Shown in pieces: positions 31,688 to 51,171 of a stretch of DNA of 64,000 bases. Within the stretch, counting starts at the first letter, position 1; every line of letters starts with the position of its first letter. The DNA comes from an uncultured Candidatus Saccharibacteria bacterium (GTDB lineage Bacteria; Patescibacteriota; Minisyncoccia; Minisyncoccales; JANBVM01). Both the position numbers and the translations under genes were made by a program. Under the pieces are notes generated by a model, which was not told where the DNA came from, searched no databases, and worked only from the letters and a program-made list of their open reading frames with translations. The DNA lies in assembly GCA_964493485.1 (NCBI GenBank), contig CAZBMQ010000003.1, forward strand, positions 8,468 through 72,467, read 5' to 3'.

Positions 31688-31724
31688 TTTTTGCTCTTTG
31701 ATTATTATATAAAAAATACAACTT

Positions 31725-32316: not shown

Positions 32317-34845
32317 TTACGGAGAAATCTCACGCCATTGAGGAAGAGGAACTGTAACATACAACTTGTATGAAACCTGGTCTGATCTTCCATTTTGGTC
32401 AACAACTGAGAGGGTAACAAGACCTGAATTAGAGCTTAAAGCTTCAAATGTAGCTGAAGGATTTTGGGCGTTGCTTGTAGATGGAGTACCGTCTGTAAAT
32501 GTCCAGCTCCAAGAAGTAATAGGCCAGTAGCCGCCTGATGTGTTTTCAGAACCTGTGGAGGTGTCTTTGAAATACACCCTTGCTCCTTCTGATACCTTGA
32601 AACCATCACAGCTCTGCCAACCTGAGTCAGGTTTCAAGGAACATTCAAAGTCTGCGATGATGTCTTGGCTAACATAAAAATCATGAGTTGTGGCATCTGT
32701 CGAACCTGCTGTATCTTCAACCTCCAGTTCAGCATAATACCACTGACTGGCAGGCATATTGGCAGGTAAGGTTATATCACAAATTGCTTCATTTTGTCCT
32801 GAGGTCAACATATTATCTGTGCATACTGTATAATCCTCTTGATATGGGGTCCCTCCCTGATAAAAGATAGACCATGTAGAAGTGACAATATCGTTGTTAT
32901 CGTCTGGATCAAGATAGGATCTTTCATAACTATATGCTACTCCGCAGTTTGGACATTCAATATCAGAATTATAACTACCAGCTACAACATCAGGATAGCA
33001 TTCATTTTCATCTTGATATCTCACACATCCTACTGATACATTGCGGAATCCAAACAAAGCACTGCTGTCGCTGCCGGGATACTCAATATATATATCATAG
33101 TCCTTATCCATTGAAGAAGAACCAAAATATATATACACTGCTCCACAATCTGAACATTTTGCGTCAGAATAAGGAGCGCCTACCACCACATCATCATAGT
33201 TGTCTTTATTAATATCTTCTGCAAAAACTGCACTTCCAAAATCAATAAGATTTAAAAGAGAACCAGGTTCATTTCTTGGATATTCAAGATATACATCATA
33301 ATCGCTGTCCATTGAACTTCCTCCATAATATACATACACAGCTCCACAATAAGTGCATTTGACATCAGACCAATTGGCGCCAGAAATCACATCATCATAG
33401 CCATCATTATTTACATCTCCTGCAGCAACTGAAAAACCCAAATGAGCAATATCACTTCCTGGATATCTTAAATAAACATCATAATTGCCATCCATCGAAG
33501 AAGAACCATAATAAACAAATACAGCTCCACCGTCACTACACTCATAATCAGAAAGAGAAGCTCCCACTATTGCATCATCATAACCATCATTATTTACATC
33601 TCCTGCAGCAGCAGCTTCTCCCAATCTCGCAGTTGAATCATTCCAAGGATATTGAAGATATACATCAGAGGTAGCTGTGGCTGAAAGAAAAGCAGAGCCG
33701 AAATAAATATAAGCTGCACCACAGTCAGTGCACTTTGTATCATCAGTAAACGCTGTAACTATCACATCGTCAAAATTGTCATTATTAAAATCGCCAAAAT
33801 ACACTGATTTACCAAAATTTCCTATTAAAGAATCACTGTCTGTTCTTGAATACTCAAGATACACATCATAATCGCCATCCATTGGATTGCCTCCATAAAA
33901 AATATAAGCTGCCCCGCAATCAGTGCATTTTGCGTCAGATTTAGGAGCCCCAACAACTACATCATCATAGCCATCATTATTAATATCTCCACCTGAAAAC
34001 ACTATATAACCAAATTCTGAACCAGCATCATTTTTAGGATATTTAAGATATAGGTCTGGACTAGAAGTAGAGGGCATTGAATTAGAGCCATAAAAAACAT
34101 ATACAGCTCCGCTATCTGTGTAATCTGCATCAGCATAAGGAGCACCTACAATAATATCTTTGTAACCATCATTATTCAGATCTCCCGTAGCAGATACAGC
34201 AAGTCCATACTGAGAATTATCTGTCAAGGGATATTTAAGGTAGATATTGTGGACAGAATAAAAATCAGTAGATTGGTTTATTAAATTAAAAATACAGTCT
34301 TTATTGTATGTTCCCCATACACCGTTGCAAGCAGCGCCTTGACATAAAGAACCATCACAGGAAAAAGCAGCTGTGGGAGGAGTATTTTCTGGAGCTCCTC
34401 CTCCTTCACTTACATCAACTTCTTTAGCACAATTAGCCGGGCAGTTTCCCGGATCACCTGACCAATTTCCATCATTATCCTGTACCCTTAATTTGGCACA
34501 AAAAGTCCCTGTAGTAGTATAAGTATGTTTTACAGTATCGCTAGTGGTTGTTATTTTTGGAGAACCATCTCCAAAATCAAATTCATACTGAGTTATTGTG
34601 CCATCAGTATCATGACCTGACCCTGTAAATGTAACCTGTAATGGAGGCAAACCGTTAGCAGGAGTTCTTGATAAAGAATCGCAAACAGGAGGAATAGTAT
34701 ATCCTACTGTTACCTTTACATAATCTGTCGCTAAATCATAATCTATTGATATTACGGCTTTGACAGCAAAGCTCTTTAATAGAAAACTACCTATTATTAA
34801 CAAGAAGATGCTCCATATTAAATTCTTTGATTTCTTAAAAAACAT
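32317..34845 (-). CDS. Giant secreted surface protein: N-terminal PKD domain, ~7 FG-GAP/integrin-alpha-like repeats, C-terminal PKD module
   Basis: Signal/TM N-terminus. PKD motif (VTFTGSGHDTDGTITQYEFDFGDGS). Repeated units (DLNNDGYKDIIVGAP, DINNDGYDDVVVGAP, DVNNDGYDDAIVGAS, ...). Its C-terminal 103 aa are identical to those of the protein at 40717..42531. Confidence 0.7.
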   Translation of the reverse strand: MFFKKSKNLIWSIFLLIIGSFLLKSFAVKAVISIDYDLATDYVKVTVGYTIPPVCDSLSRTPANGLPPLQVTFTGSGHDTDGTITQYEFDFGDGSPKITTTSDTVKHTYTTTGTFCAKLRVQDNDGNWSGDPGNCPANCAKEVDVSEGGGAPENTPPTAAFSCDGSLCQGAACNGVWGTYNKDCIFNLINQSTDFYSVHNIYLKYPLTDNSQYGLAVSATGDLNNDGYKDIIVGAPYADADYTDSGAVYVFYGSNSMPSTSSPDLYLKYPKNDAGSEFGYIVFSGGDINNDGYDDVVVGAPKSDAKCTDCGAAYIFYGGNPMDGDYDVYLEYSRTDSDSLIGNFGKSVYFGDFNNDNFDDVIVTAFTDDTKCTDCGAAYIYFGSAFLSATATSDVYLQYPWNDSTARLGEAAAAGDVNNDGYDDAIVGASLSDYECSDGGAVFVYYGSSSMDGNYDVYLRYPGSDIAHLGFSVAAGDVNNDGYDDVISGANWSDVKCTYCGAVYVYYGGSSMDSDYDVYLEYPRNEPGSLLNLIDFGSAVFAEDINKDNYDDVVVGAPYSDAKCSDCGAVYIYFGSSSMDKDYDIYIEYPGSDSSALFGFRNVSVGCVRYQDENECYPDVVAGSYNSDIECPNCGVAYSYERSYLDPDDNNDIVTSTWSIFYQGGTPYQEDYTVCTDNMLTSGQNEAICDITLPANMPASQWYYAELEVEDTAGSTDATTHDFYVSQDIIADFECSLKPDSGWQSCDGFKVSEGARVYFKDTSTGSENTSGGYWPITSWSWTFTDGTPSTSNAQNPSATFEALSSNSGLVTLSVVDQNGRSDQVSYKLYVTVPLPQWREISP
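32359..32667. repeat. 309-bp perfect direct repeat, copy A (encodes the shared C-terminal PKD module)
   Basis: Checked line by line against 40762..41070 at a constant offset of 8403 nt. No mismatches or indels were seen. Confidence 0.85.
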
Positions 34846-34852
34846 AAAATCT

Positions 34853-35641
34853 CTATTTACATGTATTGGTATATTGAATAATAGCTCCTAATGCCAGCAC
34901 AGTGGTATGAGGACTATCAGCCCAACTTCCATTTTCTTTTTGACATTTTAAAATATTTTCAATCCATTCTTGCTTCACAGGAAACCCCGCATATCCAAGA
35001 AATAAAGCTCTTTCACAATATACATCTAAAAAAGCTATATTATTGCAAAAAATAGAAAAATCTTCTTGTTTCGTATCTTTATCCTCAGCTGCTATCAATT
35101 CTTTGGCTAATTCTTTCATTAATGGATCTAAAGTATTTCCATAGCATCCTTTTTCTTTCATTAAAGACAATGCGTGTAAAAGATGAATTGAATTATATCT
35201 TACATCCCTTTCTACTTCATTTATATCCTTTAACACTTCATTATAATCAATATTTTTGCAACACATAGCTTTTATTGTAATTCGTTCAAGTAAAGAAAAG
35301 AAGGATATTTCTTTTAGTAGCTCAGAGATATTCTGATTTCTACAAGAAGAATTGTAAAGCTCAAAAAAAAGCTTTTTGTTGCTATTTTCCTCTGCACTCT
35401 TTATCTTCCAAAGCTCCTCTAGTCTCTCATCATGGCATATTTTATTAAGTTTTTGAATTAAAAGAATTATTCCTACATCAAACTTTTTTTCTGTAGTTAA
35501 AAGAAAAACTATTCCTTTCTCAATTGCGCTGCTGCTTTGTCTCTTAAAGGGTTCCGAATAATTAATTACCAACCAAAACAATATTCCTAATATTAATAAT
35601 GGGCCTAAAAGTAAAAGTATGTGTTTTATTGTAAACTTCAT
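34853..35641 (-). CDS. Hypothetical membrane-anchored protein (262 aa) with a weak prenyltransferase/squalene-cyclase-like repeat at the C-terminus
   Basis: N-terminal TM. The C-terminal segment QKENGSWADSPHTTVLALGAI resembles a Q..dGgW...T..AL repeat. The match is weak. Confidence 0.3.
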   Translation of the reverse strand: MKFTIKHILLLLGPLLILGILFWLVINYSEPFKRQSSSAIEKGIVFLLTTEKKFDVGIILLIQKLNKICHDERLEELWKIKSAEENSNKKLFFELYNSSCRNQNISELLKEISFFSLLERITIKAMCCKNIDYNEVLKDINEVERDVRYNSIHLLHALSLMKEKGCYGNTLDPLMKELAKELIAAEDKDTKQEDFSIFCNNIAFLDVYCERALFLGYAGFPVKQEWIENILKCQKENGSWADSPHTTVLALGAIIQYTNTCK

Positions 35642-35655
35642 TTTAATTTATTCTA

Positions 35656-37986
35656 CTAATACTGACATACACAATATCTCCAATAACCTGAGACAGATGC
35701 GTTACAACTTTGAGAGTATGAGCTATCTCTAGCCCAACATTCTTTGTTTCCCCATGCATCAGCTTTTACCATAGGCTGAGCTGCATTAACACCATTAGAA
35801 TGACAAAGAGAACATCCTCCTAGATTACAACAAACTGTACAATTATTATCGTCATTCCAATTAGCTTGTACACATCCACCGTAATTAGAACAAAGTCCTT
35901 CACATGTTCCTCCTTGAGCTGACATTCGCCAACAAGCCTTTCCTCCCTGCCCTGCACAGCCGTTACATCCATCATCATAGAAATACACATTCCCTTCACA
36001 TACCCTACAAACTCCCTGATAACATCTTGCATTACTTCCTGTGCACATATAATAATTACTTCCCCAATTTGAAGTAACATCAACATCGCATCTCCCAGAA
36101 CCACCACATGTTTTACATACTGCACATCCTATCTCAATGGTAGTTATACAACCATCTCCCACCTTATATGCTGTCTCTGCAATTGCAGTACCAGGAAATG
36201 CATACCAATCGCTATAACGAACTCTTCCTGCATCAGTACACTTACTGCTACCCGCCAAACAACCTCTATAATATCTTTGAGCTGAACAAGCATAGGTAAC
36301 ACAATCTATTGTTCTATCACAATAAATGCTTGATGAAGGATTTATTTCGCTCCCAGCACTACACACTTTTCCGGATGTCGAAAGATAGGCAATACTATCT
36401 CCTACATCAGGTCCTGCTGCACCTCCTGAACCGTCGCAAGCAAGTTTATCTCTTTTCTTTTGGCAAGCGCCAACACAACCATTGAATGAAGATAAACTAG
36501 AATAATAAGTATCTGAACCTGTAGCTTCCTGTCCCGCTCCTATACAAACATATCCTGCGGCAATATTTACAACATCATCCTCTCCTGTATCATATGCACA
36601 GTTATGAGAAGCATCACACCTTAATTTGTCTCTTTGCTTCTGACAGGTATAAGGAGAACCCTCACCTGTGCACGCGTTGAAATCAGAATATCCGCATACT
36701 GCAATGCCTGTTGTACCACAAGTATCAGTAAGTGTATATCCTTCTTGAGCATAAACTGCACGTGAATAAGCATCAGTATGGTCTGTGGGCGCTCTACAGC
36801 TTCCAGAACCGTTACAAGAGATAAACCACTCAGTAGCTGAACAATCCCCATCATCACAATCTTCATCATAATTACAATAAGCAGAAGGAGAAACTGGTGT
36901 CTCCTGTCCTGCCCCTGTACATACATAGCCTGACCTCACATAGGTTGTGGCACCTGAGGATTCGCAAGAACCAGCTCCATCACAATTACCAGTAGTCTGT
37001 CCAATTGTACATTCATTAATACAACTCATAGTAATGTCGCATTGGTTTCCGGGATCAGTACCGGCTGTCGCATATCCACAAGAACCATTTTGACAAGCGC
37101 GACAGATACCTGTACATCCTTCATGCTGTTCATTATTAGGCCAATTTTCACAACTCCCACTTACGCAATGAGTACAATCCCCTGTACAATTGACTCCTTC
37201 GTCCCCTGTATAAGGCACTGAGCTAGTGCTCACTCCATCACAATAATAACAAACACTACTCACCTCTATGTTTTGGTTCACTGGCCGCACGGTACAATAT
37301 CCATCTGAACCAATACCACTACAGGCTTCACAGTCTCCTGTACAAGGACCATCACAACACACCCCATCTACACAATATCCGGAAATACATTCACCCGAAG
37401 AACCGCAAGACTCTCCCAATGAAAGACCCGGCCTAGGACTAGAAACCATAATAGTTAAATGTTTGGTAGTAGGATCAATATAATCTGCAATATTGGTTGT
37501 AATATTGCCTAATAAAGTATCATCTATCTGCTGAGTAAAATCTTTACTATCCAATTCTTCCCAATTGTTTGTATTCCTGTTCCAAATATAAAAATAAGTA
37601 ACTGCATTCTGATCAATCCCTCCATATCCCTCCCATTCAAAATCTAACGAAGTAATATTATTTATGTTCTCGTTTATGGTAAATGTAAAGATATGAGTAT
37701 TCCATTGATTTGGTGGAGGAAGCAAAAGCTCCCATCTTGAATCATCGCTTGAAGAGATAGCATTATACTCTCCAGAGAGAGCTTCTGTATCATAGTCACT
37801 TGGATCTGATGGCTGACTTCCTTGTTTTCTATAAGCCCATTTGTCTACTCCAGCATTTGAAGAAAAATCATACATGCTTGTGGCTGCAAAAACCCTAAAA
37901 GAAAATCCAAATATGCCTAGAACAAATAAGACAAGAATTAGATAAATAATAACAATGTCAGTTTTGAATCTCAGAAATTTAAACAT
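35656..37986 (-). CDS. Large secreted cysteine-rich protein (776 aa) with internally duplicated Cys-rich modules
   Basis: Signal peptide (FGFSFRVFA). A Cys-free domain of ~150 aa. The remainder is packed with CxxC/CxxxC spacings (e.g. CTGDCEACSG, CTGDCTHCVSGSC, CTGICRACQNGSC). Internal duplication: CQKQRDKLRCD... vs CQKKRDKLACD.... Confidence 0.6.
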   Translation of the reverse strand: MFKFLRFKTDIVIIYLILVLFVLGIFGFSFRVFAATSMYDFSSNAGVDKWAYRKQGSQPSDPSDYDTEALSGEYNAISSSDDSRWELLLPPPNQWNTHIFTFTINENINNITSLDFEWEGYGGIDQNAVTYFYIWNRNTNNWEELDSKDFTQQIDDTLLGNITTNIADYIDPTTKHLTIMVSSPRPGLSLGESCGSSGECISGYCVDGVCCDGPCTGDCEACSGIGSDGYCTVRPVNQNIEVSSVCYYCDGVSTSSVPYTGDEGVNCTGDCTHCVSGSCENWPNNEQHEGCTGICRACQNGSCGYATAGTDPGNQCDITMSCINECTIGQTTGNCDGAGSCESSGATTYVRSGYVCTGAGQETPVSPSAYCNYDEDCDDGDCSATEWFISCNGSGSCRAPTDHTDAYSRAVYAQEGYTLTDTCGTTGIAVCGYSDFNACTGEGSPYTCQKQRDKLRCDASHNCAYDTGEDDVVNIAAGYVCIGAGQEATGSDTYYSSLSSFNGCVGACQKKRDKLACDGSGGAAGPDVGDSIAYLSTSGKVCSAGSEINPSSSIYCDRTIDCVTYACSAQRYYRGCLAGSSKCTDAGRVRYSDWYAFPGTAIAETAYKVGDGCITTIEIGCAVCKTCGGSGRCDVDVTSNWGSNYYMCTGSNARCYQGVCRVCEGNVYFYDDGCNGCAGQGGKACWRMSAQGGTCEGLCSNYGGCVQANWNDDNNCTVCCNLGGCSLCHSNGVNAAQPMVKADAWGNKECWARDSSYSQSCNASVSGYWRYCVCQY

Positions 37987-38087
37987 TCTATTTTTGCTAA
38001 CAATAAGTTATAATAACTCTAATAATTTAATTATCATTTCTTTTTCGTAATTATATCACAATAACAAAAATCAAAAAACTTAATAAA

Positions 38088-39614
38088 ATGTTTTTGAAAA
38101 AGATTGAAAAACTAATATTCAGAATTGAAAATTCAAAAGTTCCTTTTGCTTATTTTTTATCTACATTCTTCTTTTTAATTATTTTTAGATATTTTTTAGA
38201 AATGTTCTCTACTGACTTTTTATTCTCTCCATCTGATTTTTATCATATTTTTCTTTTTTTTCTCTCATGTCTCTTAACATTTGTTTTATTGTTCCATTTC
38301 AGTACGAAAGAAAATATAGAAAAGATAGTACGGTTTCTTTTCCTCTCTTTTGGTGTTATACTTCTTACTCCATTATTAGATATAATTCTCACTAAAGGAA
38401 AAGGTTATAAAATGACATATATTCTTCCAGGAGTCCACAAAAATCTACTCTTAAGATTTCTCACTTTTGGGGGATCTTTTCACAAAGACGGTTTATCTCC
38501 TGGTATAAAAATAGAAGTAGGATTAATTCTGTTGGGATGCTTTGTTTATTTTTTAATAAAGAACAAAAATATCTTCAAAAGCTTATTTTTTACATTTTTT
38601 GCATATCTTATTATATTTTTATTTGGAATTGCCCCATTTTTAGCAAAAGCATTTCTGCAGTTATTTAATTTACAATACAGGTTTTCAGCTTCCTTGATGA
38701 TAAATTTTTATCTCTTACTGCTCTTTATTTTAAGTATATGGATATTCTATCTTTACAATAAAAAATTCTGTATAGAAATATTTAAAGACATAAGACCATT
38801 TAGATTATTACACTATGAACTGATGTTTATGTTGGGATTTGTAATAAGAGAGGTTTCTTTTATGGGAGATAAGGCTCAATTTTCACAAGAGCTTTTGTTT
38901 TCATGGATATTTATAATAATTGCAATAATGTATGCAGGTTTATTCTCTGGTATTACGAACAACTTAGCAGATTATGAAATAGATAAAATAAGCAACCCAA
39001 ACAGGCCTACAGTTGCTAATACCATTCCGATAAAGGAATATAAAATGCTTTCTGGTGTCTTCCTGATGCTCGCAATAATCTATTCTCTTGCAGCAAGTTA
39101 TATGAGTTTGTTTTTAATCTTATTATTAATAGGGAGCTACTTTTTATATTCAGTTCCACCCTTAAGATTAAAAAGAATCACATTTTTTTCAAAAATTCTT
39201 ATTTCTCTCAATGCAATCACAGTAATGATGCTTGGTTATAGTCTCAATAGCATTAATTACAGCATATTTCTTCCTTCTAAAATCATTTTCTTTTCTTTAA
39301 TATTTTTAACAGCCAGTATTAATTTCATTGATATTAAAGATTACAAGGGAGACAAAAAAGCAGGGATTAAAACCCTGCCGGTTATTCTTGGGTTAGAAAA
39401 AAGTAAAAAAGTCATTGGGCTGTTTTTTCTTATTTCTTATCTTGCTTTTTATTTTCTTTTAAAGGATAATTTCTTGCTGCCTTTTTTGATTTTATTTGGT
39501 ATTATTGAGTTTCTTCTTATCAATCGAAAAAAATATAACGAAAAACCAGTATTTTTGGTTTATTTATTAAGTGTAATCTCATTAATTATCTATCTCCTTT
39601 TTTTTAACTTTTAA
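38088..39614 (+). CDS. Polytopic membrane protein: unknown N-terminal ~250-aa multi-TM domain fused to a UbiA-family prenyltransferase domain
   Basis: First UbiA Asp-rich motif NNLADYEIDKISNPNRP (NDxxDxxxD-like). Second motif DIKDYKGDKKAGIKTLPVILG (DxxDxxxD...GxxT). 508 aa with about 14 hydrophobic segments. Confidence 0.65.
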   Translation: MFLKKIEKLIFRIENSKVPFAYFLSTFFFLIIFRYFLEMFSTDFLFSPSDFYHIFLFFLSCLLTFVLLFHFSTKENIEKIVRFLFLSFGVILLTPLLDIILTKGKGYKMTYILPGVHKNLLLRFLTFGGSFHKDGLSPGIKIEVGLILLGCFVYFLIKNKNIFKSLFFTFFAYLIIFLFGIAPFLAKAFLQLFNLQYRFSASLMINFYLLLLFILSIWIFYLYNKKFCIEIFKDIRPFRLLHYELMFMLGFVIREVSFMGDKAQFSQELLFSWIFIIIAIMYAGLFSGITNNLADYEIDKISNPNRPTVANTIPIKEYKMLSGVFLMLAIIYSLAASYMSLFLILLLIGSYFLYSVPPLRLKRITFFSKILISLNAITVMMLGYSLNSINYSIFLPSKIIFFSLIFLTASINFIDIKDYKGDKKAGIKTLPVILGLEKSKKVIGLFFLISYLAFYFLLKDNFLLPFLILFGIIEFLLINRKKYNEKPVFLVYLLSVISLIIYLLFFNF

Positions 39615-39621
39615 ACTCTTA

Positions 39622-40641
39622 TTAGGGTTTACAGCAATATACTTGAAAAAAATGATCAGCAGAACCTGAGGGAGTAATATATACTCCTTTCACATAATAT
39701 CCATCATTACATAGATGGGTGCCAGTAGAAGGATTAGAGGGTTCCCAATAACAATCGCTTGTTCCTAAATTTCCATGGATCACACCGGGACCCGTCACAC
39801 TTAAATCTCCTTCGTCAGACATCAAAATATGTGTTGTTTGAGGACACTGAACATTTTGTACCTCAAACTCACTAGAACCATATAGTCCACCGCCGAAATT
39901 GAATCGATCCCAGCATTTTGTTCCAATAGGTTCTGTGGCCAAATCACACTGAGAACATTCAAATCCAGAACCTGTATCGCAGGCGCATTGAGGACTCTCT
40001 AAACCCATAGATGAATTGCCCGTGGAAACATAACCTTTTTGGGTAGCATCTTTTGTTCCCTTTAAATCAAATTTAGCAGTAGGATTGGTTGTCCCAATAC
40101 CTAAACGTTTATTTGTATTATCCCAATATAAATTAGAATCTGAAGTAATGCTGTTCCCGCTATTAAAAAATGCAATTCTGTTGGCACTTCCGCTTCCCTC
40201 AATAGTACCCTTATCATCTGCGCAAATCCAGTTGTTGTTTGCGCTATCATATTTTAATATCTGATTGTTGCTACAATAAGCACCCGACGGTTGAATACCT
40301 CTTAGTCTGCCTTCTATAAAAACATCGCCTGAAGTCTTGATGCCCATTGGATTGCTTGCAGTGCCCACTGTTAAACCATAGGAGGAATCATAAGTCTCTC
40401 CTTCTGGAATTGAAATACCAAGCCATCCTTTATTGCTGTCATTAACATATCTCTTAACCTGACCAGTTCCTGTGGCATTTAGAGGAGGTGCCACATTACC
40501 TCCAGGCGGGTTTTGAGAAGGACCTGTCCAAGCAAAAATATATAAAACAGAAAGCAAAGAAAATATCAATACACCAATGCTAATAGGTATTAATTGGTTT
40601 TTGGTTTTCATATTCATATATTTTTCAATCAGCTTCCCCAA
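39622..40641 (-). CDS. Secreted tail-fibre-like protein (GIGTTNP motif) with a Cys-rich C-terminus
   Basis: N-terminal TM/signal. Motif NLYWDNTNKRLGIGTTNPTAKFDL, typical of phage tail-fibre-like proteins. C-terminal cluster CACDTGSGFECSQCD...VYCCKP. Confidence 0.5.
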   Translation of the reverse strand: MGKLIEKYMNMKTKNQLIPISIGVLIFSLLSVLYIFAWTGPSQNPPGGNVAPPLNATGTGQVKRYVNDSNKGWLGISIPEGETYDSSYGLTVGTASNPMGIKTSGDVFIEGRLRGIQPSGAYCSNNQILKYDSANNNWICADDKGTIEGSGSANRIAFFNSGNSITSDSNLYWDNTNKRLGIGTTNPTAKFDLKGTKDATQKGYVSTGNSSMGLESPQCACDTGSGFECSQCDLATEPIGTKCWDRFNFGGGLYGSSEFEVQNVQCPQTTHILMSDEGDLSVTGPGVIHGNLGTSDCYWEPSNPSTGTHLCNDGYYVKGVYITPSGSADHFFQVYCCKP

Positions 40642-40716: not shown

Positions 40717-42531
40717 TTAATACGGAGAAGCTTCCTGCCATTGAGGAAAAGATTTAGTAATATACAACTTGTATGAAACCTGGTCTGATCTTCCATTTTG
40801 GTCAACAACTGAGAGGGTAACAAGACCTGAATTAGAGCTTAAAGCTTCAAATGTAGCTGAAGGATTTTGGGCGTTGCTTGTAGATGGAGTACCGTCTGTA
40901 AATGTCCAGCTCCAAGAAGTAATAGGCCAGTAGCCGCCTGATGTGTTTTCAGAACCTGTGGAGGTGTCTTTGAAATACACCCTTGCTCCTTCTGATACCT
41001 TGAAACCATCACAGCTCTGCCAACCTGAGTCAGGTTTCAAGGAACATTCAAAGTCTGCGATGATGTCTTGTAAAATCTTAAAAGATTGATTGACAATATC
41101 TACTTCTCCAGCATAATCTTCTACATGCAATTCTGCATTATAGTCTCCTGAAGGAAAGTATGAAGGCATTGTCCAATTGCAAAGAGGATCAACAGTACAA
41201 TGTAGGGTGTCATTTGTCTCTCCTGTAATAATCCAGGTAGAGCTTGCAATATCTCCCTGACCATCAGGATCAGTAGAATCGTTTTTTAAACAAAAGAGAG
41301 AACGGGTATATCCAGTACAAGAACCCGGAGACTGACTGCAGCCTTCTGGATAACAAGTTATATCAGCTGTTGGGGGATTATTACCTCCTTCACCCTCAGT
41401 AACAATAATCTGTTGGGTACAGGTATCAGGACAATCTCCTGGAGTTTCAGACCAATCACCATAATCGTCTTGAACCCTTAATTTCGCGCAATAAGTCCCA
41501 GTGGCATTGTATGTATATTGAGCAGTATTTTCAGATGTAGTGATTTTATTAAAATTCCAACTACAGAGACCACAGGGACTGCAACTCTCCTCTGAATCGA
41601 GAGAAGAACAGTCTCTTGATGGACCCGTGCAAAATCCTGACACCTTGTCCCAAGAACATCCACAAGCCTCACATGCTGCTTGAGTTAAAGCTAAACCGCA
41701 AACAATACTTCCCTCACATGCTCCCTCGCCAGTATTAAACTCATATTGAACAATTGTTCCTGTTTCATCTTGATCATGGCCTGAACCAGTAAAATTAACC
41801 GTTAAAGGAGCGTCACCTGAAGAAGGATTGGCTATTAAAGAATCACACACCGGAGTAAGGTTAGTTGAGGGAAGATTCCATTCGGCAATTTTATAATTAG
41901 AAGTAGTACATTCCTCTTCATTTAAACAATTGAAGGAAATCCACCCAAAATCATCTGACCATGCCCAACCTTCGAATTCACCTGTATCTCTATTAATCAC
42001 AAGATTAGGATCTGCATTTAAGCTTATCCATCCATCCCATTCTCCCGCATCGGGATTTAAAGGACCACTGCACCCTGATTGAAAAACATAGCAAGCTCTT
42101 GCCCAACCACCAACAGGTTCTTCCGGGTCTGTCTTCATGGAGCTGGTATAAGCCTGACAGGGCGAAGAAGGACATCCTGCCAACTCAGACTCATTAAATG
42201 TTATCCATCCAATATTATCTGACCAGGCATAACCCTGTAAAAGACCAGGACAATATGGAGGAATCCCACCTAATGCTTCGTAGTCAATTTTTACTCCATA
42301 CTCAACAGAAGAACCATCTGTTTCACTGCTAAAGCTTATCCATCCAATATTGTCTGACCAAGCCCATCCATGAACCTCAACCAAACCTACACATTCTTCG
42401 CTTGGAGGAGGACCGGGAGGACCCAAGTCTCCTTTTGTTCTTGTTGCCGTTAAAATTAGTGCTCCGCAGACAACTAACAGAAATATTTTAATAAGTTGTC
42501 TTTTCTTAATAAAAGAAGAATTTTTAAACAT
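40717..42531 (-). CDS. Giant secreted surface protein: WSDxxGWISF repeat region, split PKD domain with a Cys-rich insertion, C-terminal PKD module
   Basis: Signal peptide. Three repeats (GWAWSDNIGWISF, YAWSDNIGWITF, GWAWSDDFGWISFNC). PKD blocks paralogous to 32317..34845 (GTYCAKLRVQDDYGDWSETPGDCP vs GTFCAKLRVQDNDGNWSGDPGNCP). Identical C-terminal 103 aa. Confidence 0.65.
   Translation of the reverse strand: MFKNSSFIKKRQLIKIFLLVVCGALILTATRTKGDLGPPGPPPSEECVGLVEVHGWAWSDNIGWISFSSETDGSSVEYGVKIDYEALGGIPPYCPGLLQGYAWSDNIGWITFNESELAGCPSSPCQAYTSSMKTDPEEPVGGWARACYVFQSGCSGPLNPDAGEWDGWISLNADPNLVINRDTGEFEGWAWSDDFGWISFNCLNEEECTTSNYKIAEWNLPSTNLTPVCDSLIANPSSGDAPLTVNFTGSGHDQDETGTIVQYEFNTGEGACEGSIVCGLALTQAACEACGCSWDKVSGFCTGPSRDCSSLDSEESCSPCGLCSWNFNKITTSENTAQYTYNATGTYCAKLRVQDDYGDWSETPGDCPDTCTQQIIVTEGEGGNNPPTADITCYPEGCSQSPGSCTGYTRSLFCLKNDSTDPDGQGDIASSTWIITGETNDTLHCTVDPLCNWTMPSYFPSGDYNAELHVEDYAGEVDIVNQSFKILQDIIADFECSLKPDSGWQSCDGFKVSEGARVYFKDTSTGSENTSGGYWPITSWSWTFTDGTPSTSNAQNPSATFEALSSNSGLVTLSVVDQNGRSDQVSYKLYITKSFPQWQEASPY
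40762..41070. repeat. 309-bp perfect direct repeat, copy B
   Basis: Identical to 32359..32667. Confidence 0.85.
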
Positions 42532-42541: not shown

Positions 42542-43351
42542 TTATAACAAAAGATTAAAGTAAAGATTAATTAATTTATCTCCATAGAAAAAAGCCAAAA
42601 AAGTTCCTGTGATTAAAAATGGAGCAAACGGAATTTCTGATTTTAATTTCTTTTTACCAAGAAAAATTAATATTATACCTATTATAGCCCCTATAAAAAA
42701 ACTTAAAAAAATAGCCACCGCAATCCTTGGAAACCCCAGAAAAATACCCATAAAAAAGGCTAATTTCACATCACCCATACCCATTCCTTTTCCTCGAGAA
42801 ATAAAAACTATTGCCAAAAAAAATAGACTTGCTCCAATACCTGAGAAAAGAATATTAAATATATTGTATTTAAAAAAAGGAGAAAAGAAAATCCTTGAAA
42901 TTAAATACCACACAGCAGTCGTCAAAACAGCGGGATAGATTACTCTATCTGGAATAATATAATACTTTACATCATAAACAAAAATGACAATCAGAAAACA
43001 ACAAATAATAAATAAAAAAAAGAGGTCTAAAACCCAAAAAAGAACAGGGATAGAAAATAATGATTCTATGTTTTTTAAAAAAATAAAAGAAAATAAAAGC
43101 CCTGTTGATAACTCCACTAAGGGATATTGAATAGAGATAGGCTTTTGGCAATACCTACATCTTCCTTTTAAGATAATAAAACTTAAAATAGGAATCAAAT
43201 CAATGGCATGTAAGGTATGACCGCAATAAGGGCAGTAAGATCTTTTGGATAGAAAGCTTTGTTTTTTAGAAAGTCTATATATAACGCAGTTCAAAAAAGA
43301 ACCAATTATCAATCCAAATATAAAAATGAAAAATGAAAAGAAAATATTCAT
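42542..43351 (-). CDS. pilD: Prepilin peptidase (A24 family, PilD)
   Basis: N-terminal Zn-finger CPYCGHTL...CRYCQKPI. Catalytic-Asp region [16 protein letters not shown]. Polytopic, 269 aa. Confidence 0.85.
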
Positions 43352-43390: not shown

Positions 43391-43924
43391 CTAAAAACAG
43401 GTACAGCTACCCATTACACTGGGTTCTTCTTCTAACTCACACTTTTTTGTTCCTTTATGGGAAGCACAAAAATATACCTTATTACCAGGAGTTGCAGGTT
43501 CTTCTTCTAATATAGCGTAAGCGCAAAACCAATCTCCAGCAGAAAGACTGCCAAGATCCGGATCACTGCATAATATGTTGAAGCGGTTATCTACCCATAC
43601 ATAATCAGTACATGCCTCTCCCGGACATTGCGGATCATGCAAGGGGCTCAGATAACGATAAATCGCAGGAACTCCTCCCTCTTCTGGGGGAGCGGCAGTA
43701 AAATATCTATCGTTAAAGCCAAAGTATATTCCTTGAGCTGAAACCAATTGTCTCATATCTGACTGTCTCATCGCATCTCTTGCGCTGCTTCTTGCTCCTT
43801 TTAAATATGTAAAAACCACAGTAGAAAGTGTTCCAATAATAGCAATAACAACCAATAGCTCGATCAAAGTAAAACCTTTAAGTTTTTTAATCCTAAAGTG
43901 TTTGCTTCTTAATACTTGCATCAT
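43391..43924 (-). CDS. Type IV pilin (major pilin paralog 3)
   Basis: [22 protein letters not shown] class III signal. C-terminal Cys pairs consistent with a D-region disulfide. Confidence 0.8.
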   Translation of the reverse strand: MMQVLRSKHFRIKKLKGFTLIELLVVIAIIGTLSTVVFTYLKGARSSARDAMRQSDMRQLVSAQGIYFGFNDRYFTAAPPEEGGVPAIYRYLSPLHDPQCPGEACTDYVWVDNRFNILCSDPDLGSLSAGDWFCAYAILEEEPATPGNKVYFCASHKGTKKCELEEEPSVMGSCTCF

Positions 43925-44029
43925 ATAATTTAAAAAATTAATAAGTTTTAAAAATAGGCCTTTATTGTGTTTATTATATTATAATTTAAAAAAACAAGCG
44001 AGAAAAAAACTGAAAAACTATATCTTAAC

Positions 44030-44557
44030 TTACATTGCAAATTTAATACAACTACTTAATGTTGGAAGATGGCCTGCTGTATATGTCTCATCAGAACATA
44101 CTTCCTTAACCCCTCTATTTGAACTTACAAAATACCGGTGGGAAGTAGGACATCCCTCAAGATTTTCTAATTCTGCAAAAACACAAAACACATCACTTGT
44201 TGTAGCAGTTTCTGTATTGTCTAACCATATATAATCTATATGATTGGAACAGACTCCATCAGGACATAGTGGATCATGTAAGCCTATCAGATAGTTTCCA
44301 ATAGGAGGAGTTCCATCTGTTTTCTCAGTATTCTCAAAATATGTCTCATTGTCTATATAATACATTTCCTGCGCTGTAGCCAATTGTCTCATATCTGTCA
44401 TTCTATTTGTATCTCTTGCTCTCCTTCTTGCCCCTCCCAAAGACACCAAAACAATTCCAGATAAGGTTCCAATAATAGCAATAACAACCAATAGCTCAAT
44501 CAAAGTAAAACCTTTTTCTTTTTTAAGCCTTAAAAATCTCCATTTCAAGGTCTCCAT
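44030..44557 (-). CDS. Type IV pilin (major pilin paralog 2)
   Basis: [30 protein letters not shown]. The N-terminal coding DNA is identical to paralog 1 over 102 bp. Confidence 0.8.
   Translation of the reverse strand: METLKWRFLRLKKEKGFTLIELLVVIAIIGTLSGIVLVSLGGARRRARDTNRMTDMRQLATAQEMYYIDNETYFENTEKTDGTPPIGNYLIGLHDPLCPDGVCSNHIDYIWLDNTETATTSDVFCVFAELENLEGCPTSHRYFVSSNRGVKEVCSDETYTAGHLPTLSSCIKFAM
44427..44528. repeat. 102-bp perfect repeat (pilin 5' coding segment), copy 1
   Basis: Identical to 45103..45204 by direct reading. A near-identical shorter segment lies in the third pilin at ~43836-43885. Confidence 0.8.
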
Positions 44558-44625
44558 AAATAAAAATACATATAAAACTTATTTTATTAATTATACTAAA
44601 AAGTACGGAGAAAAATAAAGTTAAA

Positions 44626-44656
44626 TTGGCGGGTTTTTGCCCGCCAATTTTTCTCT
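44626..44656 (-). terminator. Putative terminator hairpin (ttggcggg-tttttg-cccgccaa) between pilin genes
   Basis: 8-bp GC-rich stem with A/T-rich flanks on both strands. Downstream of the pilin at 44700..45206. Confidence 0.35.
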
Positions 44657-44699
44657 CCATGATAACTGATTTTCAAAACTATCTACCTCCTAATCTAAA

Positions 44700-45206
44700 C
44701 TACAGATTAAAGTCACGACAATTTGCTAATGTGGGGCAATTTGCAGTATCATCCCGTGCAGTATCACTACAAACTTCTTGGACTCCTTTATCAGAAGCAA
44801 CATAGTATCGGTAGTTTGTAGTACAGCTTCCAAGGTTTTCTAATCTAGCAAAGGCGCAAAAACTAGTTGTAGCGGTAGTACCGTTGTTAACCCACACATA
44901 ATCTACATGAGTAGTACAAGTACCACCAGGACATTGTGGATCATGTAAAGCAACTAAATAATTTCCAATTGCAGGAATACCTGCTGTACAACTGCCTGGA
45001 GTTCCATTAGCATAATATCCTTCATGATCTCCATAATACATCTCTTGAGCAGTAGTTACTTGTCTCATATCAGACTGTCTGTTTGCATCCCTTGCCTTAC
45101 TCCTTGCCCCTCCCAAAGACACCAAAACAATTCCAGATAAGGTTCCAATAATAGCAATAACAACCAATAGCTCAATCAAAGTAAAACCTTTTTCTTTTTT
45201 AAGCAT
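44700..45206 (-). CDS. Type IV pilin (major pilin paralog 1)
   Basis: [50 protein letters not shown]-terminal Cys residues. Confidence 0.8.
45103..45204. repeat. 102-bp perfect repeat (pilin 5' coding segment), copy 2
   Basis: Identical to 44427..44528. Confidence 0.8.
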
Positions 45207-45305: not shown

Positions 45306-46508
45306 CTAAATAGACATCATCTGATACATAGGCATTAGTATTGAAAACATTAATCCTCCTACTATCAAACCTAAAGAAACAATCAATAAAGGCTCCAATA
45401 TTCCCAACATAGCAACCACACCTTCCTCCACCTCTCTCCTGTAAAAAAGAGCTATCTTCATTAAGCTGGTGTCTAATGTTCCTGTCTTTTCACCTACCAA
45501 TGCCATCTGAACAAACACAGGAGGAAAAATTTCTGGATAAAGAGCCAAAATAGAAGAAATAGGCACACCCCTTCTTACTTCATCTTTGGTCTTTAGAATA
45601 GCTTTTTTGTACATAGAATTTCCAACCACATCAGCTGATAACTCTAAGGCCTGGGCTATCATTATTCCTCCTGAAATCAAAGTGGAAAGATTCTCAGCTA
45701 ATCGGGCTAAATACATTGTTTTCATCACTGTACCTATAACTGGAATTTTAAGAAGAATCCTGTCTATAACATCTTTTCCCTGCTCTGTTTTATAAATTCT
45801 ATAAAGAACAAACAAAAAGACAAAAACTCCCAATATAAAAAAGAAGCCGTAGTCTTTTAAAAAACCTGCAGCTTTCAATATCTTCATTGTAAATTCCGGC
45901 ACCTCTGCTCCGCTTTCTTCAAGCACTGTCTGAAATTGGGGGATTACAGTATAAATCATCAAAATTATAACAAAGCTCACCAGCATAAGAATAAAAATTG
46001 GATATACCATAGCTCCCTTTATCTTTGAAGCCAACTGATATTGTCTTTCTAAATAGTCTGCCAAGTAATTTAATGACTCTGCCAATTTTCCTGAAGCTTC
46101 ACCTGATTTTATCATAGAGATATATAGGTCAGAAAAAATCTCAGGATAGCGGGAAAGAGCCTTAGACAAAGCTGTTCCTCCTTCAACATCTTCTGAAATA
46201 TTTAGAATCTTCTCTCTAAAATCTGCATTTTTTGTCTGACTTGATAAAACCCTCAAACTTTCCACTAAAGGAACCTTTGCATTAAACATCATTGCCAATT
46301 GTCGTGAAAAGATAACAATATCTTTTTGAGATATTCTACTGAAAAACTCTAACTTCTTTGCATAAAATGGAAGTTTTTCTTCCTCTAAGTATGTAACATA
46401 AAATCCATGCTTCTGTAAAAGTGAAAGAGCTGCATCTTTTGAAGAAGCTTCTACAATTCCAGCCCGAACATCTCCTTCTTTAGTTCTGGCTTGATAATTA
46501 AATTTCAT
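45306..46508 (-). CDS. pilC: Type IV pilus inner-membrane platform protein PilC (GspF family)
   Basis: Two GspF repeats, 3 TM segments, 400 aa, adjacent to pilT/pilB. Confidence 0.9.
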   Translation of the reverse strand: MKFNYQARTKEGDVRAGIVEASSKDAALSLLQKHGFYVTYLEEEKLPFYAKKLEFFSRISQKDIVIFSRQLAMMFNAKVPLVESLRVLSSQTKNADFREKILNISEDVEGGTALSKALSRYPEIFSDLYISMIKSGEASGKLAESLNYLADYLERQYQLASKIKGAMVYPIFILMLVSFVIILMIYTVIPQFQTVLEESGAEVPEFTMKILKAAGFLKDYGFFFILGVFVFLFVLYRIYKTEQGKDVIDRILLKIPVIGTVMKTMYLARLAENLSTLISGGIMIAQALELSADVVGNSMYKKAILKTKDEVRRGVPISSILALYPEIFPPVFVQMALVGEKTGTLDTSLMKIALFYRREVEEGVVAMLGILEPLLIVSLGLIVGGLMFSILMPMYQMMSI

Positions 46509-46522
46509 TTATAAACAAAAGT

Positions 46523-47593: not shown

Positions 47594-47620
47594 AAATTTA
47601 TCAAATTATTATTTTATAAT

Positions 47621-47989
47621 CTAATCTTTTAATACCTTTTTAATTTCATCTACCACCTCTGCTGGAGTATAATGGGCTTTGATAAAATATTTTACTACTC
47701 CCATTTCCAAGCCTTTCTCAACTTCCTCTTTCTGACCAAGATTAGAAAGAATAAAAACCTTTAAATCTTTTAACTTCTTGTCTTTTTCAATTTCTTTTAA
47801 AATCTGCCAACCATCAATATGAGGAAGAACAATATCCAATACCAATAAATCAAAATGTTTTTCCTTTAATTTTTTCAAACCTTCCAATCCATCAGTAGCA
47901 ACATCTACATCAAAACCCATTTCTTTCAATTTTGTGTGATAAATATCTACTAAAAATGGGTCGTCTTCAATTACTAAAATATGCTTCAT
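47621..47989 (-). CDS. Stand-alone CheY-like response-regulator receiver (PilH/PilG-like)
   Basis: MKHILVIEDDPFLVDIY...DLLVLDIVLPHIDGWQIL...KVFILSN; 122 aa, receiver domain only. Confidence 0.8.
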   Translation of the reverse strand: MKHILVIEDDPFLVDIYHTKLKEMGFDVDVATDGLEGLKKLKEKHFDLLVLDIVLPHIDGWQILKEIEKDKKLKDLKVFILSNLGQKEEVEKGLEMGVVKYFIKAHYTPAEVVDEIKKVLKD

Positions 47990-48028
47990 ATTAATAGAAA
48001 GAAGTTAATTATTAATTATATTTAATTA

Positions 48029-49750: not shown

Positions 49751-49765
49751 AATTTTATTTTTTAA

Positions 49766-50062: not shown

Positions 50063-50079
50063 AGTTATAAAAATTGAGC

Positions 50080-50619: not shown

Positions 50620-50620
50620 A

Positions 50621-51148: not shown

Positions 51149-51171
51149 AATATTATTATGTGGTTATATAA

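What the first reader, a model, noticed from the sequence alone, without database searches (positions are those of the whole stretch)
32359..32667. 309-bp perfect direct repeat shared by two giant surface-protein genes 8.4 kb apart (second copy at 40762-41070)
The 3' ends of the genes at 32317..34845 and 40717..42531 (both minus strand) contain a 309-bp stretch that is identical base for base, at a constant offset of 8403 nt. It encodes exactly a 103-aa PKD-type module (QDIIADFECSL...SYKLY). The final ~15 codons diverge (…VTVPLPQWREISP vs …ITKSFPQWQEASPY). The upstream parts of the two proteins are only distantly related. Perfect identity inside otherwise diverged paralogs implies recent gene conversion or concerted evolution of a constant C-terminal module. 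This would fit a conserved anchoring or pilus-docking domain carrying variable adhesive N-terminal regions. The repeat is also a substrate for deletion or inversion of the intervening 8 kb.
Basis: seen in the sequence. Interest (0 to 1): 0.7.

Follow-up and report, generated by a model that had tools for sequence, protein, structure and literature searches.

The report
Shared tail module in pilus adhesins
Two secreted adhesin-like genes in the type IV pilus cluster of a tiny CPR/Patescibacteria bacterium carry the same 103-codon C-terminal module, which recombination keeps nearly identical between them; the perfect identity seen here does not hold in another assembly of the same organism.

Summary
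The 309-bp exact direct repeat is real (32359-32667 = 40762-41070). It is in frame, covers exactly 103 codons, and is far longer than chance allows. It is the last PKD-like domain of two Sec-signal proteins, A842 and B604, inside a complete type IV pilus cluster.

The flanks are old. The neighbouring domain has dS about 1.8, and each copy resembles orthologues in other genomes more than its own paralogue. The module is therefore homogenised within the genome: concerted evolution by gene conversion. RecA is encoded in the window.

An independent 108-kb assembly of the same population is identical over 20.6 kb except for 10 mismatches. Nine of them lie in the B copy of the module, so the copies are 97.1% identical there. 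A third assembly is mosaic. The perfect identity is either a very recent B-from-A conversion or assembler homogenisation. Only reads can decide.

About 50 Patescibacteria representative proteins with unrelated N-terminal parts end in the same two PKD-like domains plus an extreme C-terminal tail, [LF]P[EQ]WxE..P[FL]. They usually sit directly upstream of the four minor-pilin genes. This fits a PilY1-like arrangement of a constant pilus-docking stalk and a variable adhesive head, but docking is inferred, not shown.

Direct repeats allow deletion, not inversion.

The parts
32359..32667 (-). Repeat copy 1: PKD3 module (103 codons) of A842, aa 727-829
   Evidence: Identical in L037, L038 and L039.
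40762..41070 (-). Repeat copy 2: PKD3 module of B604, aa 488-590. This copy varies between assemblies, with 0, 2 or 9 differences from copy 1.
32317..34845 (-). A842: Sec-type signal peptide, PKD1, PKD2 interrupted by an FG-GAP propeller, PKD3, C-terminal tail. Other annotations start it at TTG 34803 (828 aa).
32911..34263 (-). 451-aa FG-GAP (integrin-alpha-like) beta-propeller inserted in the first loop of PKD2 of A842 (aa 195-645), with six or seven DxNxDGxxD-type blades
   Evidence: FG-GAP, E=1.9e-41, 6 stretches; families D1, D2, D5.
32668..32910 (-). PKD2 (A-type) C-terminal part of A842, just upstream of the repeat. It is 39% aa identical to B604 PKD2 and 50-56% identical to A-type homologues in other genomes.
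   Evidence: dS about 1.8.
32317..32358 (-). A tail VTVPLPQWREISP plus stop codon: family motif [LF]P[EQ]WxE..P at the extreme C-terminus
40717..42531 (-). B604: signal peptide, WAWSDNIGWISF repeats, PKD1 with a 53-aa Cys-rich insertion, PKD2 (B-type), PKD3, tail
40717..40761 (-). B tail ITKSFPQWQEASPY plus stop codon
30153..32300 (-). Four minor pilin genes immediately downstream of A842: GspH-like 191 aa, I-like 196 aa, J-like 196 aa, and a K/PilX-like 133 aa protein that lacks Glu5
   Evidence: The same order is found in L001, L002, L003, L004, L007, L013 and L018.
34853..40641 (.). Genes between the two copies, which recombination between the repeats would delete: 262 aa, a 776-aa Cys-rich secreted protein, a UbiA-family protein (plus strand), and a 339-aa protein with an AWTGPSQNPPGGN motif
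42542..43351 (-). Prepilin peptidase PilD, immediately upstream of B604
43391..45206 (-). Three tandem pilin paralogues. Two of them share a 102-nt exact repeat at their 5' ends.
   Evidence: (family D3).
45306..52251 (-). Pilus machinery: PilC, PilT, response regulator, PilB, PilO, PilN-like, PilM
16489..17499 (-). RecA, the recombinase needed for homologous gene conversion, is encoded in the same window

Best explanation
The repeat is the last PKD-like Ig domain (PKD3) of two paralogous secreted proteins, A842 and B604. Both are encoded in the type IV pilus (T4P) cluster of a Patescibacteria (CPR) bacterium, and both are built on the same stalk: PKD1, PKD2, PKD3 and a short tail. Different adhesive parts are grafted onto that stalk. 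A842 has a 451-aa integrin-like FG-GAP propeller inserted in PKD2. B604 has N-terminal WAWSDNIGWISF repeats and a Cys-rich insertion in PKD1.

Shown: the two genes are old paralogues, yet their PKD3 DNA is 97-100% identical. This means non-reciprocal homologous recombination (RecA-dependent gene conversion) has repeatedly copied this segment between them, which is concerted evolution. The window shows the fully homogenised state, in which the B copy carries the A sequence.

Inferred: the constant end (PKD2, PKD3 and the tail [LF]P[EQ]WxE..P[FL]-COOH) is the part that attaches these Sec-exported soluble proteins to the pilus. The most likely attachment point is the tip complex formed by the four minor pilins encoded directly downstream of A842. 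The variable parts would then point outward as adhesins. This is the logic of PilY1/PilC in Gram-negative T4aP, carried out with an unrelated constant domain. Sharing a partner would supply the selection that tolerates or favours homogenisation of PKD3. The two tails stay different and may distinguish the two proteins.
For: Repeat and reading frame.

Conversion signature: in the module 103 of 103 codons are identical, against 17 of 46 identical-residue codons upstream. PKD2 has dS about 1.8 and dN 0.61, while the module in L037 has dS 0.11 and dN 0.008. PKD2 of A842 is 50-56% identical to A-type homologues elsewhere but 39% identical to B604. PKD2 of B604 is up to 56% identical to B-type homologues. 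PKD3 is at most 58% identical to any homologue from another genome.

Population data: L037 differs from the window at 10 of 20,576 positions, and 9 of these are in the B module (P about 4e-16). The 9 sites are clustered within the module (P about 0.006). L033 keeps only the two 5'-most differences. RecA, RecG, SSB and LigA are encoded in the window.

Family: a HMMER scan of 1.84 billion representatives gives about 50 proteins of 150-1766 aa whose extreme C-terminus matches the whole 199-aa query and ends in the tail motif. The AF2 model of the 199 aa has pLDDT 90.2 and shows two Ig/PKD-like sandwiches followed by an unstructured conserved tail. Its best single-domain matches are ColG PKD domains (TM 0.75-0.82).

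Synteny: in 7 of 12 genome loci the tail protein lies immediately upstream of 3-4 minor pilins, followed by LigA and FtsW (then RpoB where the locus extends that far), exactly as in the window. Three more lie within 7 kb of T4P genes. B-like proteins follow PilD or precede PilM.

N-termini are Sec-like and not prepilin-like. The fourth minor pilin lacks Glu5, like PilX/GspK, which contacts PilY1 in Myxococcus (PMC7541494). In Saccharibacteria a propeller-bearing protein without a PilD signal, encoded in the minor-pilin locus, is needed for efficient host binding (PMC11623550).
Against: No experiment or complex model links the module or tail to any pilin. Docking rests on gene neighbourhood and on analogy. 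Four of 12 tail proteins are not adjacent to minor pilins. The perfect identity may come from the assembler rather than from a real recent conversion: the window-type B604 protein is listed only from NCBI, while the 2-aa variant is listed from JGI/IMG and ENA. The mosaic contig L033 could be a chimera made at low k. If the N-terminal hydrophobic segment is an uncleaved anchor, the C-terminus would be distal rather than a docking end.
Confidence: 0.65

Rival explanations
1. Assembler homogenisation. In the real genome the two modules are about 97% identical, as in L037. The 9 clustered differences formed a bulge between 75-nt and 102-nt identical flanks. A de Bruijn assembler working at k below about 75 popped that bulge, and repeat resolution then wrote the same consensus into both genes. 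Under this view the perfect identity is an artefact. The older concerted evolution and the family-level interpretation still stand.
For: L037 (MEGAHIT, k=141, another sample) resolves two distinct copies, while everything else is identical except 1 SNP in 20 kb. The variant B604 protein (S513A, T548S) is listed from two sources (JGI/IMG, ENA), and the window-type B604 only from NCBI. Assemblies break at this repeat: Logan k=31 contigs stop exactly 30 nt inside the module from all four sides, and L033 and L039 overlap by exactly k=141. That bulge popping can homogenise near-identical repeat copies is my own knowledge of assemblers and was not tested here.
Against: The samples are not the same strain pool, since one extra SNP separates each ENA contig from the window, so real strain differences exist. 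The three states (9, 2 and 0 differences) form a nested series, as conversion tracts of different length sharing a 3' end would. At k=141 an L037-type genome has no 141-mer shared between the copies, so the L033/L039 junction needs either a real hybrid molecule or a carried-over chimeric contig.
Confidence: 0.4
2. The constant C-terminal module is not a pilus-docking device. It would instead be the functional binding end, or a cell-envelope or S-layer attachment module. In that case the proteins are held in the membrane by an uncleaved N-terminal helix, and their linkage to T4P genes reflects co-regulation only.
For: PKD domains often mediate protein or glycan binding (general knowledge). The N-terminal segments are hydrophobic, and cleavage was not tested. 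Four of 12 family members are not next to minor pilins.
Against: The module and its extreme C-terminal tail are conserved across Patescibacteria that presumably have different hosts, while the rest of each protein is hypervariable. That pattern is what is expected of the machinery-facing end. Seven of 12 are adjacent to the minor-pilin operon, and the PilY1 precedent has the same polarity (PMC7541494).
Confidence: 0.25
3. One-off recent domain duplication or shuffling: one gene acquired PKD3 from the other for the first time by illegitimate recombination, rather than by conversion between modules that were already homologous.
For: The tract boundaries coincide with a domain boundary.
Against: Every family member, both A-type and B-type, already has PKD3 plus the tail. 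The tails downstream of the tract are homologous but diverged (69% nt), so both genes had the module before. The boundaries are simply where homology ends. The population shows several tract states.
Confidence: 0.05
4. Diversity-generating retroelement: one copy is a template repeat and the other a variable repeat at the 3' end of a target gene. Such elements are common in CPR genomes.
For: A near-identical repeat at the 3' end of a surface-protein gene in a CPR genome.
Against: No reverse transcriptase was found among the ORFs of 100 aa or more in the 64-kb window that were scanned with Pfam. Both copies are coding. Of the 9 differences in L037, 7 are synonymous and mostly T/C changes at third codon positions, and only one site has an A in either copy on the coding strand. 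The fold is PKD-like, not C-type lectin.
Confidence: 0.01

Closest known systems
PilY1 / PilC tip-associated adhesins of type IVa pili (Pseudomonas, Neisseria, Myxococcus; PMC7541494)
   Same: [quoted passage not shown] It is encoded with four core minor pilins, one of which lacks Glu5. Paralogues within one genome differ in their heads. A842 carries a calcium-loop beta-propeller.
   Different: No PilY1 C-terminal domain is detected (no PF05567 hit). The constant part here is two PKD-like Ig domains plus a short tail. The propeller is the variable insert, not the constant domain. The host is a monoderm-like CPR bacterium without a secretin. The interaction with pilins is not shown.
PilX2 / PilX1 of Nanosynbacter lyticus TM7x (Saccharibacteria; PMC11623550)
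   Same: A Patescibacteria T4P locus encodes a large accessory protein with a seven-bladed propeller or a lectin-like domain and no PilD-type signal. PilX2 is needed for efficient host binding and is proposed to be the tip adhesin.
   Different: Sequence relationship was not tested. Those proteins are described as pilin-like lollipops with C-terminal accessory domains. No shared C-terminal tail motif or paralogue homogenisation has been reported.
Helicobacter pylori babA/babB (and sab, hom) adhesin paralogues (PMC3444412, PMC4552749)
   Same: Paralogous adhesin genes at separate loci have divergent ligand-binding parts and conserved ends. RecA-dependent intragenomic recombination and gene conversion between them creates chimeras and homogenised segments.
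   Different: Those are outer-membrane beta-barrel proteins, in which the conserved 3' part encodes the barrel. Here the conserved part is a soluble Ig-like stalk linked to a pilus system.
Neisseria pilE/pilS antigenic variation
   Same: Non-reciprocal transfer between pilus-related genes, bounded by conserved segments.
   Different: There the variable part is what is exchanged, from silent cassettes, with a dedicated G4-dependent mechanism. Here the constant part is homogenised between two expressed genes, and no silent cassettes were seen.
Modular minor pilins (Streptococcus sanguinis PilB/PilC; PMC8179133)
   Same: Adhesive modules are displayed by a monoderm T4P.
   Different: Those are true pilins with a prepilin leader and a grafted module. 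A842 and B604 lack the prepilin motif.

Membership tests
PKD / Ig-like domain | Match to the Pfam PKD profile family | tested here: inconclusive
   Over the module itself only a sub-threshold K319L-like_PKD hit is seen (B604 aa 537-584, 24.4 bits against a cut-off of 27). PKD_4 passes for the whole proteins through PKD1. Homologues give PKD_4 over the equivalent C-terminal domain (L013, aa 261-342).
PKD / Ig-like domain | Beta-sandwich fold superposable on solved PKD domains | tested here: met
   AF2 model with pLDDT 90.2. Foldseek against ColG/ColH PKD domains gives TM (target) 0.69-0.82 and rmsd 3.1-4.8 A, and tandem hits to GhpA Ig repeats.
PilY1/PilC family | Conserved C-terminal PilY1 beta-propeller domain (Pfam PF05567) | tested here: not met
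   Pfam scan at E<=0.01 returns only FG-GAP and PKD families for A842 and only PKD families for B604.
PilY1/PilC family | Encoded with core minor pilins, including a Glu5-less PilX/GspK-like pilin | tested here: met
   A842 is followed by four pilin-like genes, and the fourth reads G|LSIML with no Glu5. The synteny is conserved in 7 other loci.
PilY1/PilC family | Type I signal peptide, soluble protein, located at the pilus tip | not testable with these tools
   The N-termini look Sec-like by eye. No signal-peptide predictor or localisation data were available.
Type IV pilin / modular pilin | Prepilin leader ending in Gly, followed by a hydrophobic helix with Glu5 (N_methyl motif) | tested here: not met
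   No PF07963 hit for A842 or B604, whereas the neighbouring pilins hit it.
Gene conversion / concerted evolution between paralogues | Within-genome identity, including synonymous sites, far above that of the flanks | tested here: met
   Module dS is 0 (window) or 0.11 (L037), against about 1.8 in PKD2 and 0.42 in the tail.
Gene conversion / concerted evolution between paralogues | The converted segment groups by genome while the flanking segment groups by orthology | tested here: met
   PKD2 is A-type or B-type across genomes, while PKD3 is 97-100% identical within the genome and at most 58% identical to any other genome. This rests on identity tables, not a full phylogeny.
Gene conversion / concerted evolution between paralogues | Polymorphic tracts in the population, confirmed at read level | tested here: inconclusive
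   Three haplotypes with 9, 2 and 0 differences appear in three assemblies. Reads were not available, so assembler artefacts cannot be excluded.
Diversity-generating retroelement (TR/VR pair) | A nearby reverse transcriptase, and differences confined to template adenines | tested here: not met
   No RT was found among the ORFs of 100 aa or more that were scanned with Pfam. The differences are mostly synonymous T/C changes.
C-terminal sorting signals (LPXTG/sortase, PEP-CTERM, GlyGly-CTERM and similar) | Motif followed by a transmembrane helix and a basic tail; match to NCBIfam sorting-domain models | tested here: not met
   The protein ends 4-6 residues after the motif, with no hydrophobic segment. 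There are no NCBIfam hits to sorting domains.

The most novel reading that the evidence does not exclude
The two-PKD module ending in [LF]P[EQ]WxE..P[FL]-COOH is a previously undescribed, Patescibacteria-wide adaptor. It plugs interchangeable Sec-exported adhesin heads (propellers, cadherin-like arrays, WAWS repeats) onto the minor-pilin tip of the type IV pilus, which is the organelle these episymbionts use to find hosts. In this population the module is also an active recombination cassette. Conversion tracts of different lengths exist, and possibly a B-head/A-tail fusion with loss of the 8.4-kb segment between the copies. These would re-pair heads with tails and with the minor-pilin operon, giving a simple way to switch host adhesion.
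Probability: 0.25. Interest if true: 0.7.

Novelty: new variant of a known kind. Interest (0 to 1): 0.5.

Why it matters
Patescibacteria make up a large share of bacterial diversity, and all cultivated members live attached to host cells. Type IV pili are their best-supported host-recognition organelle, but how adhesins are coupled to these pili outside Saccharibacteria is unknown. A recognisable constant module with a short invariant C-terminal tail, encoded next to the minor pilins, would give a sequence handle for finding candidate tip adhesins in thousands of uncultured genomes. It would also give a concrete interaction to test. The homogenised module shows that these tiny genomes still use homologous recombination to shape surface-protein paralogues. 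The finding is also a practical warning: perfect repeats in metagenome-assembled genomes may overstate identity, because another assembly of the same organism shows 9 differences.

Tried and rejected
1. The word-index homologue search with the 199-aa C-terminus found nothing. The exhaustive HMMER scan was needed.

2. A single-sequence AF2 model of whole B604 was useless (pLDDT 34). The alignment-based model of the C-terminal 199 aa worked.

3. The search for related loci with the 37-sequence alignment failed for lack of a conserved stretch. An 8-sequence alignment worked.

4. The metagenome scan with B604 returned only distant relatives (29-43% identity) and not the source population.

5. Exact-product look-ups of A842, B604, P0004, the 776-aa protein and the 339-aa protein failed. 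For the 339-aa gene a different called start (329 aa) was later seen; for the others the cause is unclear. Neighbouring genes (PilD, the 191-aa pilin, the 262-aa protein, UbiA) did retrieve independent contigs.

6. No contig from ERZ27248139 covering the B tail could be retrieved, so the mosaic L033 could not be resolved.

7. The DGR hypothesis was rejected (no RT, wrong substitution pattern). C-terminal sorting signals were rejected (no TM segment, no NCBIfam hit). PilY1 membership was rejected (no PF05567).

8. Selection alone cannot explain identity at about 69 synonymous sites.

9. Collapse or chimera as the origin of the two copies was rejected, because all four flanks and both crossings are independently assembled.
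Full report
OBSERVATION. Window 32359-32667 and 40762-41070 are identical at all 309 positions, at offset 8403, and the exact match cannot be extended on either side. Shuffled copies of the window give longest exact repeats of 15-19 nt. The only other long exact repeat in the window is 102 nt, in two pilin genes. The tract lies in frame at the 3' end of two minus-strand genes: 32317..34845 (842 aa, here called A842) and 40717..42531 (604 aa, here called B604). It spans exactly 103 codons, A842 aa 727-829 and B604 aa 488-590. The last 13 or 14 codons differ (VTVPLPQWREISP against ITKSFPQWQEASPY; 69% nt identity). tblastn finds only these two copies of the module in the window.

CONTEXT. Positions 30.1-52.3 kb on the minus strand form a complete type IV pilus cluster. 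In gene order it contains:
- PilM, a PilN-like protein, PilO, PilB, a response regulator, PilT and PilC;
- three pilin paralogues;
- the prepilin peptidase PilD, followed by B604;
- a 339-aa protein, a UbiA-family protein on the opposite strand, a 776-aa Cys-rich protein and a 262-aa protein;
- A842, followed by four minor pilins (H-, I-, J- and K-like; the last lacks Glu5).

LigA, FtsW, RpoB, RpoC and FtsK follow. G+C content is about 34%. The closest related loci are from Candidatus Nealsonbacteria and other Patescibacteria, so the organism is a CPR bacterium. This taxonomic assignment is an inference.

ANATOMY OF THE TWO PROTEINS. Both start with a Sec-like hydrophobic N-terminus and have no prepilin motif. 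Removing aa 195-645 from A842 leaves a sequence that aligns end to end with B604 and with homologues such as P0010, as PKD1, PKD2, PKD3 and tail.
- A842 is this stalk with a 451-aa FG-GAP (integrin-alpha-like) propeller inserted in the first loop of PKD2 (Pfam FG-GAP, E=1.9e-41).
- B604 is the same stalk with a 53-aa Cys-rich insertion in PKD1 and N-terminal WAWSDNIGWISF repeats.
- An AF2 model of the last 199 aa, built on a 37-sequence alignment, has mean pLDDT 90.2. It shows two beta-sandwiches followed by an unstructured tail of about 11 residues.
- Foldseek matches solved PKD domains of collagenases (target TM 0.69-0.82) and tandem Ig repeats.

WHY THIS IS GENE CONVERSION.
- In the module all 103 codons are identical. 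In the 137 aligned residues upstream, only 17 of 46 identical residues use the same codon, and nt identity is 43%.
- By Nei-Gojobori estimates, PKD2 has dS about 1.8 (saturated) and dN 0.61, and the tail has dS 0.42.
- PKD2 of A842 is 50-56% identical to A-type homologues from other genomes but only 39% identical to B604. PKD2 of B604 is up to 56% identical to B-type homologues. PKD3 is at most 58% identical to anything outside this genome.

The two genes are therefore ancient paralogues whose PKD3 has been homogenised within the genome. All family members already carry PKD3 and the tail, so this is conversion between homologous modules and not a first-time domain transfer. RecA, RecG, SSB and LigA are encoded in the window. 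A diversity-generating retroelement is excluded, because no reverse transcriptase was found among the scanned ORFs of the window and the substitution pattern is wrong.

IS THE PERFECT IDENTITY REAL? Look-ups with neighbouring genes retrieved independent assemblies of the same population.
- L037 (ENA ERZ27248458, a 108,472-bp MEGAHIT contig) matches window 42300-21725 with 10 mismatches in 20,576 nt. Nine of them are in the B module, at module positions 76, 99, 141, 147, 150, 153, 182, 183 and 207. Seven substitutions are synonymous and two are replacements, S513A and T548S. The tenth mismatch is at 38598. The probability of nine or more falling in the module by chance is about 4e-16.
- In L037 the A module equals the window sequence and the B module differs from it at 9 of 309 positions (97.1% identity; dS 0.11, dN 0.008). 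The nine sites are clustered in the central 132 nt (P about 0.006).
- L033 (ERZ27248139) carries only the two 5'-most B alleles and A-type bases at 141-207. It stops at module position 240. It overlaps by exactly k=141 nt with L039, which starts at position 100 of the A copy and runs into the A tail and the minor pilins.
- Logan k=31 contigs stop exactly 30 nt inside the module from all four sides (L034, L042, L043, L040).
- The protein collection lists the variant B604 from JGI/IMG and ENA, and the window-type B604 only from NCBI.

Two conclusions follow. First, the two-copy arrangement is real: every unique flank is independently linked to its neighbours, and L037 and L038 cross the module. 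Second, the perfect identity is one of three observed states. It is either a very recent B-from-A conversion, with L033 as a shorter tract, or the result of bulge popping and chimeric low-k contigs in short-read assemblies. I put these at roughly 55:45 and cannot separate them without reads. The L033/L039 adjacency is also what a recombinant joining the B head to the A tail, with deletion of 8.4 kb, would produce. That point remains unexplained. Direct repeats can give deletion or duplication, not inversion.

A FAMILY WITH A CONSTANT C-TERMINUS. An exhaustive HMMER scan of 1.84 billion representatives with the last 199 aa gave 1994 hits. Most are generic multi-PKD proteins. About 50 proteins, 150-1766 aa long, match the whole query once, at their extreme C-terminus. 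These end in [LF]P[EQKDS][WF]xE[IVA]x[PS][FLPI]-COOH, typically PLPEWxEVPPL or PLPEWxEIPPF. Invariant positions include a Cys pair in PKD3 and the P, W, E and P of the tail. Their N-terminal parts are unrelated: WAWS repeats, PKD, cadherin-like, Big_9, Ig_Rha78A_N and the FG-GAP propeller. No NCBIfam model covers the module or the tail, and it is not followed by a transmembrane segment, so it is not a sortase- or exosortase-type signal. Literature searches found no description of it.

LINK TO THE PILUS. Among 12 genome loci with a tail protein:
- seven (L001 Ca. Nealsonbacteria, L002, L003, L004, L007, L013, L018) place it immediately upstream of three or four minor pilins, followed by LigA and FtsW (then RpoB where the locus extends that far), the same order as A842 in the window;
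- L009 has it in the same cluster as PilD and the minor pilins;
- L005 and L010 have a PilB-type ATPase within 4-6 kb.

B604-like proteins with WAWS repeats and variant tails follow PilD (L027) or precede PilM (L020, L023, L026, L029, L031).

This is the arrangement known for PilY1. PilY1 is a Sec-exported soluble protein with a variable N-terminal region and a conserved C-terminal domain. It forms a priming and tip complex with four minor pilins, contacts the Glu5-less PilX, and places its variable domain at the extreme tip (PMC7541494). In Saccharibacteria, PilX2 is a propeller-bearing protein without a PilD signal, encoded in a minor-pilin locus. It is needed for efficient host binding and is proposed to be the tip adhesin (PMC11623550).

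A842 and B604 are not PilY1 family members, because they have no PF05567 domain. In A842 the propeller is the variable insert and not the constant part. My working model is that PKD2, PKD3 and the tail form the machinery-facing docking stalk and the inserted or added domains are the adhesins. That model is inferred and not shown.

VERDICT. The gene-conversion interpretation is supported at the level of at least 97% identity against saturated flanks. The claim of perfect identity and a recent event is uncertain. The docking interpretation is plausible and now rests on family-wide conservation and synteny. The phenomenon, concerted evolution of the constant end of adhesin paralogues, is known from the H. 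pylori bab genes, for example (PMC3444412, PMC4552749). The constant module and its tail appear to be undescribed.

Noticed in passing
window 44427-44528 and 45103-45204: A second exact direct repeat of 102 nt. It covers the 5' ends (leader plus N-terminal helix, ...[32 protein letters not shown]) of two tandem pilin genes, 44030..44557 and 44700..45206. The third pilin, 43391..43924, shares a 32-nt exact core. This may be another conversion tract in the same cluster.
   Followed up: partly
window 32911-34263 (A842 aa 195-645): The FG-GAP propeller is a nested insertion between NQSTD and DPDD in the first loop of PKD2. Removing it restores a contiguous alignment with B604 and P0010.
   Followed up: yes
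L033 (ERZ27248139) 11262-11501 and L039 1-141: A contig carrying the B-upstream sequence and a contig carrying the A tail overlap by exactly 141 nt inside the module. The haplotype is mosaic: B alleles at positions 76 and 99, A alleles from 141 onward. This is compatible with a partial conversion tract, with a junction that deletes the 8.4-kb segment, or with an assembly chimera.
   Followed up: partly
window 35656-37986 (minus strand): A 776-aa secreted protein that is very rich in Cys, with many CxxC and CxC motifs and the ending ...YWRYCVCQY. It has no Pfam hit in my scan, but PF27237 (AF_1625_C) is listed for it in the precomputed table. A similar Cys-rich protein sits upstream of the tail protein in L001.
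   Followed up: no
window 38088-39614 (plus strand): A UbiA-family prenyltransferase-like membrane protein of 508 aa with a long N-terminal extension. It is the only plus-strand gene inside the pilus cluster, and it lies between the two repeat copies.
   Followed up: no
window 39622-40641 (minus strand): A 339-aa protein with an N-terminal helix followed by AWTGPSQNPPGGNVAPPLN and a Cys-rich C-terminus, and no family hit. Another annotation starts it 10 codons later (329 aa).
   Followed up: no
window 30153-32300; L001, L002, L004, L007, L018: The four minor pilins have strongly conserved extreme C-termini across Patescibacteria loci: ...GLIDID, ...NWY(E/R), ...SQRNLDVxY and ...RAIEIxY. The fourth lacks Glu5.
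   Followed up: partly
L001, L011, L013 (upstream of the tail protein): In several related genomes the tail-protein gene is preceded by radical-SAM/SPASM-like genes (CxxxCxxC N-termini) and by a polytopic membrane protein that begins ...YEDIRYGK. This suggests a linked modification system that is absent from the window.
   Followed up: no
P0044 (827 aa) and P0050 (529 aa): Two family members have nearly identical N-termini and nearly identical last ~110 aa, but different middles and different PKD2 types. This may be a second example of constant ends around a swapped middle. Whether they come from one genome is unknown.
   Followed up: no
window 47621-47989 (minus strand): A stand-alone response-regulator receiver domain encoded between PilB and PilT. 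It is conserved at that position in the related loci L020, L023, L026, L029 and L031.
   Followed up: no
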